A stretch of 64,000 nucleotides of DNA, from assembly GCF_009914755.1 (NCBI RefSeq), contig NC_060934.1. One strand, given 5' to 3'. Below the pieces are notes generated by a model. That model was not told where the DNA came from. It saw nothing but the letters and a program-made list of their open reading frames with translations, and ran no database searches. Below are positions 31,461 to 34,442 of the stretch, piece by piece. Numbering within the stretch: position 1 is the first letter of the stretch; every line of letters begins with the position of its first letter. Position numbers and translations under genes: made by a program. The stretch is from the human T2T-CHM13v2.0 reference genome, Homo sapiens.

Positions 31461-32495
31461 GATGATATTCCCTTTCATGGGGAGACCACATTCTGTGGAT
31501 CCATTTCCCAGTTGATAGACATTTGGGTTGTTTCCACTTTCCAGCTTTCAGGCTGTTATGAATAATGCTGCCATGAACATCCACGTGTAATGTGTTTTTG
31601 CATGGATGTATGGTTTTGTTTTTTTGGTTTTTGTTTGTTTGTTTGTTTTGTTTTTTTGAGACATAGTCTTGCTCTGTCACCCAGGCTGGAGTGCAGTGGC
31701 ACGATCGCAGCTCACTGCAACCTCCACCTTCCGGGTTCAAGCGATTCTCCTGCATCAGCCTCCCAAGTAGTTGGGATTACAGGTGTGCGCCACCACACCC
31801 GGCTAATTTTTGTATTTTTAGTAGAGACAGAGTTTCGCCATGTTGGTCAGGCTGATCTTGAACTCCTGACCTCAGGGGATCCACCTGCCTCAGCCTCCCA
31901 AAGTGCTGGGATTACAGGCGTGAGCCACTGCACCTGGCAACGTGGACATATGTTTTTACACCTCTTGGGTATATACGTAGGAGGGGAGTGACTGGGTCAT
32001 ATGGTAACTCTGTGCTCTGTGTTTAACCATTTGAGGAACTGCTTGACCTGTCTACACAGCAGCTTCCCAGCTGCTGCTTGTATGAGGCTTGCCTTCAGTG
32101 TGACAGGACTAGGAAGAAAGTCTGTGTGAAATGCCTGTTTTCAAAGAAGTAGACTATTGTGAAGCACTCTTTAAACTGCATCTTCGCTGTTGAGTCTTTG
32201 ATGATTCCAAAGGGACTTGTGGATTCTTCAAAGTCTCAAGGGCACTGCTATGAATGCTGGTCGTCTTTGTACCAGCAGACACAATTCTGGCTAGGAGGCT
32301 GTGGCAACAGAGATGGTGCTGTTACAAATCCTTAAGTTCAAGGTGCAAGGGAGAGACAGGTGTGAGTTAATGCCTGTGAGGAAGGCTCCTGGAAGACAGA
32401 GGGCAGGCTCTGAAGCCTGGTCTCCAGGGCAGGCAGGTGAGAGCGCAAGGAGGCTGGAAGGGGGGCATGGAGTTGGGGTCCATGTGAGTCTGGGA
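31461..32495. repeat. Left arm of ~700-bp inverted duplication (interrupted by an Alu at ~31613-31938)
   Basis: Reverse complement of 33740-34442 by hand alignment, e.g. a 54-bp perfect match 31985-32038 vs 34207-34260. ORF peptides at 32301(+) and 33931(-) are near-identical (TEMVLxQILxFxVQGRDRCELMP). Confidence 0.95.
31613..31938 (-). mobile_element. Alu (AluS-like) inserted in the left arm of the inverted duplication
   Basis: Alu body with degenerate TSD CATGGATGTATG / CGTGGACATATG. The equivalent site in the right arm is empty. Confidence 0.9.
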
Positions 32496-32817
32496 TGAAG
32501 CAGGATCTGCCCCCCTAGGCTTCCTGTGCCCTCCGCAATTCTCCCACTCCACTCGTTCACAAACGTACAACAGGCGCCCATGCCACAGCTCTGTCACATG
32601 GGTCACTGAGCAGCAGTGACCTCTCGTAGAAGGATGGAGAGACTGCTCTCTGGAGAAGAGGGCAGGCACTGCAGCAGTCAGGCCACACTGCTTGTCCATC
32701 CAGAGGAACCATTTCTAGAGCATCTACGAGGCTCACCTGCTGGACTCCTGCCACCTTGATGGCAAGCACCTACAACCACATGCTCTGAATATGCCCAGCA
32801 GAGAAAATGCCAACATC

Positions 32818-33117
32818 GGCCAGGCATGGTGGCTCATACCTGTAATCCCAGCGCTTTGGGAGACTGAGGCGGGCAGATCACCTGAGGTCAGGAGTTTGAG
32901 ACCAGCTTGGCCAACATGGTAAAACCCCACCTCTATTAAAAATATTAAAATGACCCAGGTGTGGTGGCACACACCTGTAATCCCAGCTACTTGGGAGGCT
33001 GAGGCAGGAGAATCGCTTGAACCTGGGAGGTGGAGGCTGCAGTGAGCCGAGATCACACCGCTGCACTCCAGCCTGGGCGATACAGCAAGATTCCATCTCA
33101 AAAAAAAAAAAAGAAAA
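32818..33117 (+). mobile_element. Alu (AluS-like) in the loop of the inverted duplication
   Basis: 16-bp TSD AGAAAATGCCAACATC. Confidence 0.92.
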
Positions 33118-33531
33118 GAAAATGCCAACATCCCTGGCATCTGTCACTCCTGAACTGAGAGAGCAACACAGGAGAACAACACTAGATTGGAAGGTGAGAA
33201 GGGGGCTCATTCAAGACTACTGGGAAATAACAACTCCCAGGGCCTCAGGACCCAAACACCCTGCTGGTCTGTTCAGAACAAGAGAATCACTCCAGGAACC
33301 ACACCCTTGATCCTTGTTCAATCTGCTTCACAGCCAGCTAGAGGCAGAAGTGACCTACAGAGTTCCAAGCTGCAGGGAGAACACAGGTCCATTTTCAAAG
33401 TCAACCCATGGGAATGATTTCATGGGTGTCGCTGACCAGGGACCAGCTCTGGTGGCACTCCCCAGACAGGGTCAGAGCCTGAACGATGAGAGCTGGCCAT
33501 GCCCTCCTGGCTGGAGCTGACCAGGGCCTAC

Positions 33532-33681
33532 CTCGGAGCTGACTGAATGTGGTCATGAACTTGCTGGTGAGGGACTTAAGCTCGTTGTTAGCCAGGGTGA
33601 TGAGGTGGATCTGGCCAGAGACATTCCGCAGGACCTTGTAGATGCCAATGGGAAAGGAGACCAGCTTGCACTCGGCCAGGT
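33532..33681 (-). CDS. LRRC20: LRRC20 internal coding exon (150 nt, phase 1-1): (D)LAECKLVSFPIGIYKVLRNVSGQIHLITLANNELKSLTSKFMTTFSQLR
   Basis: LRR-type peptide inside ORF 33401..33931 matches the LRRC20 protein as I recall it. Acceptor TTTGTTCTTTGGCTGCAG|AC at 33682 and donor CCGAG|GTAGGC at 33531 on the minus strand. Joins in frame to the 16834-17001 exon (G|AG = Glu). Confidence 0.95.
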
Positions 33682-33739
33682 CTGCAGCCAAAGAACAAAA
33701 ACAAACCAGAGTTATCAGCCACAGCTGCCCGAGAACTTG

Positions 33740-34442
33740 TCCCAGACTCACACAGACCCCACCTCCATGCCCCCTTCCAGCCTCCTTGCCCTCCCACCTG
33801 TCTCCCCAGGACCAGGCTTCAGACCCTGCCCTCCCTCTTCCAGGAGCCCTCCTCATAGGCATTAACTCACACCTGTCCCTCCCTTGCACCCTGAACCTAA
33901 GGATTTGTGTTAGCACCATCTCTGTTACCACAGCCTACTAGCCAGAATCGTGTCTGCCGGCACAAAGATGACTGGCATTCATAGCAGTGCCTTTGAGATC
34001 CTGCAGAATCCACAAGTCCCTTTAGAATCATCAAAGACTCGACAGCGCAGATGCAGTCTAAAGACTGCTTTACAATAGTCTACTTCTTTGAAAACAGGCA
34101 ATTCACACAGACTTTATGGTTTGATCTTCTTCCTAGTCCTGTCACGCTGAAGGCAAGCCTCGTACAAGCAGCAGTTGGGAAGCCACTGTGCAGAACAGTC
34201 AGGCACTTCCTCAAATGGTTAAACACAGAGCACAGAGTTACCATATGACCCAGTCACTCCACTCTTAGGTATATACCCAAGAGACAAAAACATACATCCA
34301 TGCAAAAACACATTACATGTGGATGTTCATGGCAGCGTTATTCACAATGGCCCGAAAGCCAGAAAGTGGAAACAACCCAAATGTCCACCAACTGGGGACT
34401 GGATCAGCAAAATGTGGTCTCTCCATGAAAGGGAATATCATC
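33740..34442. repeat. Right arm of ~700-bp inverted duplication
   Basis: Starts TCCCAGACTC (complement of GAGTCTGGGA ending at 32495) and ends GGGAATATCATC (complement of GATGATATTCCC at 31461). The outer ~240 bp is old L1 sequence and the inner part shows no repeat I recognise. Confidence 0.95.

What the first reader, a model, noticed from the sequence alone, without database searches (positions are those of the whole stretch)
31461..34442. ~700-bp non-Alu inverted duplication brackets a symmetric LRRC20 coding exon: candidate RNA-structure splicing switch
Seen in sequence: 31461-32495 (excluding an Alu insert) is the reverse complement of 33740-34442. Hand alignment gives about 85-90% identity (13 mismatches in one 127-nt block), a 54-bp perfect tract and one ~12-bp indel. 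The inner ~450 bp is not a repeat I recognise, so this looks like a local inverted duplication rather than two transposon copies. The ~1.24-kb loop holds the 150-nt phase 1-1 exon (33532-33681). In the pre-mRNA the upstream arm ends only 58 nt before the 3' splice site, about 25 nt before a CTGAT branch-point candidate (~33715). Established: long complementary intronic flanks promote exon skipping and back-splicing and are ADAR substrates. Inference: the stem could loop out the exon to give an in-frame isoform lacking 50 aa (about two LRRs), a lineage-specific structural switch created by duplication.
Basis: partly seen in the sequence, partly recalled or inferred. Interest (0 to 1): 0.85.

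Follow-up and report, generated by a model that had tools for sequence, protein, structure and literature searches.

The report
Local inverted duplication flanking LRRC20 exon
A 700-base piece of the intron just upstream of a 150-base LRRC20 coding exon was copied backwards into the downstream intron long ago, so the two copies could pair in the RNA and loop out the exon, but nothing yet shows that this changes splicing.

Summary
31461-32495 (minus an Alu) is the reverse complement of 33740-34442: 616 of 690 aligned bases identical (89.3%), gaps of 13, 2 and 1 bases, longest perfect run 54. The 1,244-base spacer holds the 150-nt phase 1-1 exon.

It is a local inverted duplication, not two transposon copies. 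The inner ~430 bases occur only twice in the whole T2T genome, namely the two arms. The outer ~270 bases are an L1 ORF2 C-terminal fragment. Both arms share the same junction between L1 and single-copy sequence. The L1 runs on to its 3' end only beside the right arm, so the right arm is the parent and the left arm is the copy. Divergence (K2P 0.118) and an Alu that later inserted into the left arm suggest an age of roughly 27-59 Myr.

In silico, the arms are the strongest and closest of 103 inverted pairs across the exon. They dominate the minimum-energy fold with 491 base pairs.

The splicing-switch idea remains untested. Arm substitutions show no bias that preserves pairing (28 G·U versus 26 A·C). 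Seven LRRC20 literature searches found no report of skipping of this exon, of a human circRNA or of editing. It is a well-defined candidate of a known mechanism and of modest interest.

The parts
31461..31628 (.). Left (derived) arm, outer piece. It is the antisense copy of an L1 ORF2 C-terminal fragment and pairs with 34275-34442.
   Evidence: 88.1% over 168 bases, inverted. It is a dispersed repeat with 1,106 first-look candidates in the genome, and other copies are <=81% identical. No L1 similarity lies to the left of 31461. The flank 31200-31460 is single-copy.
31618..31952 (-). Alu A1, which inserted into the left arm after the duplication. It has a target-site duplication of about 15 bp at 31603-31617 and 31953-31967.
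   Evidence: The right arm has no Alu at the matching place. The doubled target was read from the sequence, and searches show both flanks aligning to 34275-34283. Rfam SRP-like hits confirm Alu identity. Non-CpG divergence from the window's Alu majority is 5.6%.
31962..32064 (.). Left arm, remainder of the L1-derived part.
   Evidence: Other genomic copies match only query positions 1-103 of 31962-32130, at 75-81% (one 53-base hit at 89%). The partner arm matches at 91%.
32065..32495 (.). Left arm, inner part. It is a copy of single-copy intron sequence and is the main predicted stem partner.
   Evidence: 32117-32495 has only two places in the 3.1-Gb genome, itself and 33740-34115 at 89%. Identity to the right arm is 385 of 428. 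The flank 32496-32812 is single-copy.
32496..33739 (-). The 1,244-base spacer, which forms the loop in the pre-mRNA. It holds Alu A2 (32813-33130), the exon and its splice signals.
   Evidence: Alu A2 is identified by self-blast and Rfam SRP-like hits.
33532..33681 (-). LRRC20 150-nt coding exon, phase 1-1.
   Evidence: Annotation supplied with the finding. Splice dinucleotides were read and the frame comes.
33682..33739 (-). The 58 nt between the right arm and the exon: 3' splice site AG, polypyrimidine tract and the CTGAT branch-point candidate (A at 33715).
   Evidence: Read. The local hairpin seen in the minimum-energy fold is not special (z -0.77).
33740..34180 (.). Right (parental) arm, inner single-copy intron part.
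   Evidence: 33740-34126 has only two places in the genome even at E<=10. Its 83-aa reading frame does not match L1 ORF2.
34181..34442 (+). Right arm, outer part. It is the 5' end of a 5'-truncated L1, covering ORF2 residues about 1166-1239.
   Evidence: phmmer against PDB human L1 ORF2p 8sxt gives E 1.7e-12 over residues 1166-1239. It is collinear with other L1 copies.
34443..35455 (+). Continuation of the same L1 to its A/T-rich 3' end. This part lies outside the duplicated segment. It is interrupted by Alu A3 (34465-34765; TSD 34450-34464 and 34766-34780) and Alu A4 (about 34996-35300).
   Evidence: 34800-34929 and 35296-35428 are collinear with L005 and L011. The TSDs and the L1 tail were read.

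Best explanation
This is an old, fixed, local inverted duplication. A 703-base piece of the intron immediately upstream of the 150-nt LRRC20 exon was copied in reverse orientation into the downstream intron, 1.24 kb away. The piece consisted of about 440 bases of single-copy intron plus the first ~260 bases of a resident 5'-truncated L1. It is now the right arm, 33740-34442, and the copy is the left arm. An Alu later landed inside the copy.

Shown here: the two-copy status, the shared L1/unique junction, the direction of copying, and the predicted RNA stem.

Inferred: the copying was a DNA-level event, either a replication template switch or a templated break repair, because there is no poly(A) and no clear target-site duplication. 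It probably happened in an anthropoid or catarrhine ancestor, roughly 27-59 Myr ago.

In the pre-mRNA the arms should form an imperfect duplex of about 490 bp, extended by an Alu-Alu helix, which closes a loop containing the exon. By the established action of reverse-complementary intronic matches, this would favour some exon skipping or back-splicing and would attract ADAR and dsRNA-binding proteins. The size of any such effect is unknown. The arms look as if they are drifting neutrally. The most likely status is a neutral structural relic with at most a modest, unselected effect on splicing.
For: Repeat and identity.

Two-copy status: the inner part has 2 of 2 genomic places equal to the two arms, tested from both arms. 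The outer part is a dispersed repeat (1,106 and 473 first-look candidates, 40 scored each). Every other copy is <=81% identical, apart from one 53-base hit at 89%, against 88-91% between the arms.

L1 identity: L1 ORF2p residues 1166-1239, E 1.7e-12.

Direction of copying: the L1 continues collinearly to the right of the right arm across two Alus. Nothing L1-like lies to the left of 31461, where the DNA is single-copy. The inner flank of the left arm is also single-copy.

Order of events: Alu A1 sits in the left arm only and has a TSD. A1's non-CpG divergence is 5.6%, against about 4.6% per arm (63 non-CpG differences over 690 columns, halved).

RNA prediction: duplex energy for the arms is -957 kcal/mol, against -254 to -317 for 10 shuffles and -456 to -478 for the three Alu pairs. 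The minimum-energy fold of 3,401 nt of pre-mRNA pairs 491 bases of the right inner arm with the left inner arm and 246 of A3 with A1. The arm pair ranks first by score and by closeness among 103 inverted pairs across the exon in the window.

Neutral drift: 28 G·U versus 26 A·C transitions, p=0.89. L1 and non-L1 parts are equally diverged, Fisher p=0.53. The 54-bp perfect run has p=0.12.

Known mechanism: PMC4201285 (passages read), PMC8330042 (abstract read), PMC7371899 (passages read).
Against: - No other species' genome could be searched, so the absence of the left arm in outgroups, the empty site and the age are inferred only.
- The genome search scores only first-look candidates and can miss very old, decayed repeats. 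The inner part could be an ancient repeat, although that would not change the duplication inference.
- Gene conversion between the arms could make them look younger than they are.
- Minimum-energy folds ignore co-transcriptional kinetics, proteins and helicases.
- The G·U/A·C test has little power with 54 transitions, so weak selection on pairing is not excluded.
- No RNA-seq, editing or circRNA database was available, so a real splicing effect could exist unseen.
Confidence: 0.65

Rival explanations
1. The duplication created a functional, lineage-specific RNA-structure switch. Arm pairing loops out the exon and measurably raises production of an in-frame transcript lacking 50 codons and/or a 150-nt circular RNA, possibly tuned by ADAR, DHX9 or NF90.
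For: - The arm pair is the strongest and nearest complementary pair across the exon.
- The stem ends 58 nt from the 3' splice site and 25 nt from the branch-point candidate.
- The exon is symmetric, phase 1-1.
- Reverse-complementary matches promote both back-splicing and skipping (PMC8330042 abstract). Repeats of 30-40 nt suffice for circularisation (PMC4201285 passages).
- UniProt lists at least three LRRC20 isoforms (Q8TCA0-3 is named in PMC13600778). My recollection that one isoform lacks 50 residues was not checked by any search.
Against: - No substitution bias preserves pairing.
- No report of skipping of this exon, of a human LRRC20 circRNA or of editing turned up in seven LRRC20 searches of main texts.
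- Stronger hairpins sometimes inhibit circularisation (PMC4201285).
- From memory, single-exon circles usually come from much longer exons.
- The exon has a good polypyrimidine tract and a GTAGG donor, so it may be defined before the downstream arm is transcribed.
- A mouse Lrrc20 circRNA exists on an array (PMC8660871). Lrrc20 circles may therefore not need this repeat, assuming mouse lacks the arm, which was not tested.
Confidence: 0.2
2. The arms are two independent insertions of one dispersed repeat, an L1 or a composite element, that happen to lie in opposite orientation.
For: The outer ~270 bases of each arm are L1 ORF2-derived.
Against: - The inner 379-387 bases occur only at these two places in the genome.
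- Both arms share the same L1/non-L1 junction.
- The arms are 88-91% alike, whereas other L1 copies are <=81% (one 53-base hit at 89%).
- The left copy stops inside ORF2 with single-copy DNA beyond it.
Confidence: 0.02
3. The direction or history differs from the one proposed. Either the left arm is the parent and the right arm the copy, or both are remnants of a larger palindrome that was later eroded by deletions.
For: The outer breakpoint (34442-34445) lies only 5-8 bases from the target-site duplication of Alu A3 (34450-34464). A more complex event at that spot cannot be excluded.
Against: The L1 is continuous and collinear to its 3' end only on the right side. If the left arm were the parent, the rest of the L1 would have had to be deleted exactly at the arm boundary, and the right-hand L1 would have had to be rebuilt, which is unparsimonious.
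Confidence: 0.08

Closest known systems
Inverted Alu pairs (reverse-complementary matches) in flanking introns that promote exon circularisation and skipping. Sources: Jeck 2013 and Zhang 2014, as cited in PMC4201285 and PMC7371899; Liang & Wilusz 2014, PMC4201285; PMC8330042 for skipping.
   Same: Complementary sequences lie in the two introns that immediately flank an exon. [quoted passage not shown] Within-intron and across-exon pairs compete.
   Different: The arms are not SINEs. They are a locus-specific duplicate, with about 430 of 700 bases being single-copy intron. They are twice as long as an Alu and pair better (blast score 619 against <=322 for any Alu pair across the exon). No transcript evidence exists here.
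Mouse Sry locus: a single exon flanked by >15-kb locus-specific inverted repeats that drive circular transcripts (Capel 1993 and Dubin 1995, as described in PMC4201285).
   Same: A locus-specific inverted duplication, not a dispersed repeat, brackets one exon. At Sry at least 400 complementary nucleotides were reported to be needed, and the LRRC20 stem (about 490 bp) exceeds that.
   Different: The arms are about 20 times shorter and are 11% diverged. The exon is an internal coding exon of 150 nt. Circularisation has not been observed.
Inverted MIR pairs and non-repetitive complementary sequences that drive back-splicing (ciRS-7 and others; PMC7371899).
   Same: This is a non-Alu source of intronic complementarity across an exon.
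   Different: MIR pairs are ancient, conserved dispersed repeats. Here the complementarity arose in one step by local duplication.
Template-switch mutations that create inverted repeats and hairpins during replication (PMC5453318, PMC8794818, PMC10710096; search listing and abstract openings only). FoSTeS/MMBIR is recalled from memory.
   Same: A nearby sequence is copied in reverse complement, which creates a stem in one event. There is no poly(A) and no clear target-site duplication.
   Different: Described short template switches span tens of bases. This one is 703 bases with a 1.24-kb spacer. Junction microhomology could not be judged without the empty site.
L1 twin-priming inversions (recalled from memory).
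   Same: Inverted L1 sequence lies close to sense L1 sequence.
   Different: Twin priming inverts the 5' part of one insertion and does not duplicate the same segment. Here the same L1 segment plus 430 bases of non-L1 DNA is present twice.

Membership tests
Exon-flanking reverse-complementary match (RCM) pair | Complementary sequences in inverted orientation in the two introns directly flanking the exon | tested here: met
   Arms at 31461-32495 (downstream intron) and 33740-34442 (upstream intron), 89.3% identity.
Exon-flanking reverse-complementary match (RCM) pair | Across-exon pairing predicted to beat competing within-intron pairs | tested here: met
   Duplex -957 against -456 to -478 kcal/mol for the three Alu pairs. 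The minimum-energy fold has 491 pairs between the inner arms. The pair ranks first of 103 across-exon inverted pairs. This is in silico only.
Exon-flanking reverse-complementary match (RCM) pair | Back-spliced or exon-skipped transcripts that depend on the arms | not testable with these tools
   No RNA-seq or circRNA database was available. Seven LRRC20 literature searches gave no report of skipping of this exon or of a human LRRC20 circRNA.
Exon-flanking reverse-complementary match (RCM) pair | Evolutionary maintenance of pairing (compensatory or wobble-biased changes) | tested here: not met
   28 G·U against 26 A·C among 54 transitions, p=0.89. The test has low power.
Local inverted duplication (templated insertion or template switch) | Sequence present only at the two neighbouring places in the genome | tested here: met
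   2 of 2 matches are the arms, with either arm as query, at E up to 10.
Local inverted duplication (templated insertion or template switch) | Both copies share an arbitrary junction (truncated L1 next to unique DNA), and one copy is cut short relative to its parent | tested here: met
   L1 similarity ends at 32064 and 34181 in the two arms. The L1 continues only beside the right arm. The left flanks are single-copy.
Local inverted duplication (templated insertion or template switch) | Microhomology at the junctions and an empty site in outgroup species | not testable with these tools
   Only the human genome is held. No clear TSD or poly(A) is seen at 31460/32496.
Two independent copies of a dispersed repeat (L1) | The whole of each arm belongs to the repeat family, with independent truncation points and flanks | tested here: not met
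   The inner ~430 bases are two-copy only. The 83-aa inner frame does not match ORF2p. The junction is shared by both arms.
DNA transposon with long terminal inverted repeats | Multiple genomic copies, and TIRs at the ends of a mobile unit | tested here: not met
   There are only two places in the genome, and the 'interior' holds a host coding exon (annotation).
ADAR hyper-editing substrate (long intronic dsRNA) | Clusters of A-to-I sites in both arms | not testable with these tools
   No editing database was available. The search 'LRRC20' + 'RNA editing' gave one unrelated fox paper.

The most novel reading that the evidence does not exclude
One duplication event in an anthropoid ancestor installed a ~500-bp RNA stem around a symmetric LRRC20 exon. 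Since then it has acted as a primate-specific switch that diverts part of the pre-mRNA to an isoform 50 residues shorter or to a 150-nt circular RNA. The effect would be greatest in tissues with high LRRC20 expression such as skeletal muscle, and its strength would be set by dsRNA-binding and editing proteins.
Probability: 0.15. Interest if true: 0.55.

Novelty: new member of a known kind. Interest (0 to 1): 0.35.

Why it matters
Most human exon-flanking complementarity comes from Alus, which are so numerous that the contribution of any one pair is hard to isolate. Here a single, datable, non-Alu duplication made the dominant pairing partner for one small symmetric coding exon. Its parent copy and its derived copy can be told apart.

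That makes a clean natural experiment. Species with and without the left arm can be compared. Deleting the derived arm should remove the stem without touching the native splice signals. If the arm matters, it would show a protein isoform or circRNA arising in one mutational step. If it does not, it shows that a 500-bp intronic stem 58 nt from a splice site can be tolerated.

Tried and rejected
- Pfam on four stop-free frames of the right arm gave 0 families at E<=1. L1 identity came from the PDB ORF2p match instead.
- The inner 83-aa frame against PDB gave only beta-lactamase at E 1.4, which is chance. There was no ORF2p match.
- Rfam at E<=0.1 over 31000-35600 gave 16 hits. All were SRP-like Alu halves or sub-threshold Alu-derived miRNA-family hits inside Alus, and none lay in the non-Alu parts of the arms.
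- The hairpin pairing the branch-point region with the exon start in the minimum-energy fold is not special (z -0.77; 52 of 200 shuffles fold as well).
- The 82 exon-to-downstream-loop pairs in the minimum-energy fold are five short helices of 6-21 pairs. I treat them as folding noise.
- The wobble-bias test was null.
- The 54-bp perfect tract is not evidence for conversion or selection (p=0.12).
- A retrocopy origin for the left arm was rejected because the sequence shows no poly(A) or T-run at either end.
- A Pfam LRR hit for the 150-nt exon alone was not found.
- Literature on LRRC20: the 'circRNA' search gave 7 papers. I opened two. PMC9393479 matched on Lrrc2_0005, not LRRC20. PMC8660871 lists a mouse Lrrc20 array circRNA. 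The other five were seen only in the listing. 'Exon skipping' gave 1 paper and 'alternative splicing' 4; none has LRRC20 in its title or abstract (listing only). 'RNA editing' gave 1 paper, a fox brain-transcriptome study seen in the listing only. The circLRRC20 name variants and 'hsa_circ' gave 0. 'Isoform' gave 30 papers, of which I opened two. These showed only that LRRC20 is expressed in many tissues and highest in skeletal muscle (PMC8594701) and that an isoform 3 exists (PMC13600778). Supplementary tables were not searched and may hold LRRC20 splicing or circRNA rows.
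Full report

Yes. The repeat finder and a self-blastn of 30001-36000 both show the inverted match:
- 31962-32495 against 34283-33740: 87.6% over 548 columns, E 1e-179.
- 31461-31628 against 34442-34275: 88.1% over 168 bases, E 1.5e-53.

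The two pieces of the left arm are separated by an Alu. A global alignment of the left arm without the Alu against the reverse complement of 33740-34442 gives 616 matches and 74 mismatches (54 transitions, 20 transversions). There are three gap events of 13, 2 and 1 columns. Identity is 89.3%, K2P is 0.118, and the longest perfect run is 54.

The spacer is 1,244 bases. The exon 33532-33681 on the minus strand has AG at 33683-33682 and GT at 33531-33530, and it is phase 1-1 (frame). The right arm ends 58 nt upstream of the 3' splice site. CTGAT is at 33718-33714. The one that could not be confirmed is 'about two LRRs': the exon's 49 full codons give no Pfam hit at E<=1, whereas the next exon hits LRR_4 and LRR_8.

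**2. What is it?**

The window's whole assembly (3.1 Gb, 24 contigs) could be searched.
- The inner part of the left arm (32117-32495) has exactly two places in the genome: itself, and the right arm at 89%.
- The reciprocal query (33740-34126) at E<=10 again finds only these two.
- The outer parts are a dispersed repeat. 31461-31628 gave 1,106 first-look candidates and 31962-32130 gave 473, with 40 scored in each case.
- Every other copy is 72-81% identical, apart from one 53-base hit at 89%. For the second query, other copies cover only positions 1-103, that is up to 32064. The partner arm matches at 88-91%.

The repeat is L1. The open frame 34223-34462 matches human L1 ORF2p residues 1166-1239 (PDB 8sxt, E 1.7e-12). 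The frame just upstream, in the inner part, does not match it. Pfam gave nothing on four arm frames.

Each arm is therefore about 270 bases of the 5' end of a 5'-truncated L1 joined to about 430 bases of otherwise unique intron. Both arms carry the same junction. Two independent insertions cannot give that, so the arms are copies of each other. One caveat applies: the genome search scores only first-look candidates and could miss a very old, decayed repeat in the inner part. That would not alter the conclusion.

**3. Which arm is the parent?**

A blastn of the region against eight other L1 loci shows that the L1 beside the right arm continues collinearly beyond the arm. For example, against L011: 34198-34438 aligns to 1518-1737, 34845-34927 to 1838-1923, and 35296-35428 to 1996-2128. 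The continuation is interrupted by two Alus, each with its own target-site duplication, and it ends in an A/T-rich tail near 35450.

To the left of 31461 there is no L1 similarity, and the DNA is single-copy. The inner flank 32496-32812 is single-copy as well. The left arm thus stops in the middle of ORF2 and sits between unique sequences. It is the derived copy, and the right arm is the source. No poly(A), T-run or clear target-site duplication bounds the left arm. I therefore infer a DNA-level event (replication template switch or templated repair) rather than retroposition.

**4. Age (inference)**

Alu A1 lies only in the left arm and has a target-site duplication of about 15 bp (31603-31617 and 31953-31967). 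It therefore inserted after the duplication. Measured against a majority of the 34 long Alu matches (>=250 bases; 41 blast matches in all) in the window:
- A1 is 5.6% diverged at non-CpG sites.
- A2, A3 and A4 are 8.9-9.3% diverged.
- The arms differ at 63 non-CpG sites of 690, or about 4.6% per arm.

The duplication is thus of about the same age as A1 and probably younger than A2-A4. K2P of 0.118 gives 27-59 Myr for rates of 2.2 to 1.0 x 10^-9 per site per year (the rates are recalled from memory). No other primate genome was available to check presence or absence.

**5. RNA-level prediction**

In the orientation of the LRRC20 pre-mRNA, the duplex energy of the upstream arm with the inner downstream arm is -957 kcal/mol. 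Ten shuffles give -254 to -317, and the three Alu pairs give -456 to -478.

The minimum-energy fold of 34800 to 31400 (3,401 nt) contains 491 pairs between the inner arms. It also contains 246 pairs between Alu A3 and Alu A1. These replace the pairing of the outer 168-base arm pieces, with which they cannot nest. The innermost pair is 33740-32495.

Among 103 inverted blast pairs that span the exon within this window, the arm pair has the highest score (619 against <=322) and the shortest span (1,245 bases). If any intronic pairing loops out this exon, it is this one.

**6. Is there evidence that it matters?**

None could be found, and two small tests point to neutrality.
- Transitions between the arms give 28 G·U wobbles and 26 A·C mismatches in the sense RNA (p=0.89).
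- The L1-derived and unique parts are equally diverged (231 of 262 against 385 of 428, p=0.53).
- The 54-bp perfect run is expected by chance in 12% of simulations.
- The hairpin over the branch point and 3' splice site in the minimum-energy fold is ordinary (z -0.77).
- Rfam finds only Alu-derived signals.

Seven searches of main texts that combined LRRC20 with circRNA, exon skipping, alternative splicing, RNA editing, hsa_circ, circLRRC20 names or isoform gave no report on skipping of this exon, a human circRNA or editing. They showed only:
- a mouse Lrrc20 array circRNA (PMC8660871, passage);
- expression in many tissues, highest in skeletal muscle (PMC8594701, passages);
- the existence of a UniProt isoform 3 (PMC13600778, passage).

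Supplementary tables were not searched. My recollection that an annotated isoform lacks 50 residues was not verified by any search.

**7. Comparison with what is known**

Inverted repeats in flanking introns promote back-splicing. Repeats of 30-40 nt suffice, but stronger hairpins can inhibit (PMC4201285, passages). They can promote exon skipping as well (PMC8330042, abstract). Non-Alu sources such as MIRs and non-repetitive complementary sequences are documented (PMC7371899, passages).

The nearest analogue in architecture is mouse Sry, where locus-specific inverted repeats of >15 kb flank the circularised exon (as described in PMC4201285). Template-switch mutations are known to create hairpins in a single step, though at much shorter scale (PMC5453318 and PMC8794818; listing and abstract openings only).

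The LRRC20 structure is a new, well-defined example of this known kind and not a new mechanism.

**8. Verdict**

- The structural interpretation is supported and extended to include direction, composition and relative age.
- The splicing-switch interpretation is plausible but untested, and there is no sign of selection.
- Interest is moderate to low (0.35). The locus is a clean, testable candidate because only one derived arm needs to be removed or compared across primates.

Noticed in passing
window 34442-34464: The outer breakpoint of the duplicated segment (34442-34445) lies only 5-8 bases from the target-site duplication of Alu A3 (34450-34464, repeated at 34766-34780). By divergence, A3 looks older than the duplication (8.9% non-CpG against about 4.6% per arm). 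Either the copied segment stopped just short of a resident Alu, or the spot is a hotspot.
   Followed up: partly
window 31603-31617 and 31953-31967: Alu A1 in the left arm has a clear target-site duplication of about 15 bp. In the minimum-energy fold A1 pairs with Alu A3 (246 pairs) and displaces the outer 168-base arm pairing. The later Alu insertion therefore rewired the outer half of the predicted stem.
   Followed up: partly
window 34181-35455: A 5'-truncated old L1 (ORF2 C-terminus to the A/T-rich 3' end) lies in sense on the plus strand. It is interrupted by two Alus (A3 and A4), each with its own target-site duplication.
   Followed up: partly
window 31678-31805, 33020-33079, 34464-34726, 35141-35268: There are sub-threshold Rfam hits to mir-3135 and mir-1268 (26-41 bits against gathering scores of 80-83). 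All lie inside Alus and are evidently Alu-derived family similarity, not miRNA genes.
   Followed up: no
window 17002-64000: The two introns flanking the exon hold many Alus. There are 103 inverted blast pairs across the exon, 19 within the downstream intron and 137 within the windowed part of the upstream intron, so Alu competition is heavy in this gene.
   Followed up: partly
literature (PMC8660871): A mouse circRNA assigned to Lrrc20 (circRNA_22083) is listed among those differing between diabetic heart and diabetic retina on an array. Which exons it contains is not stated in the passage read.
   Followed up: no
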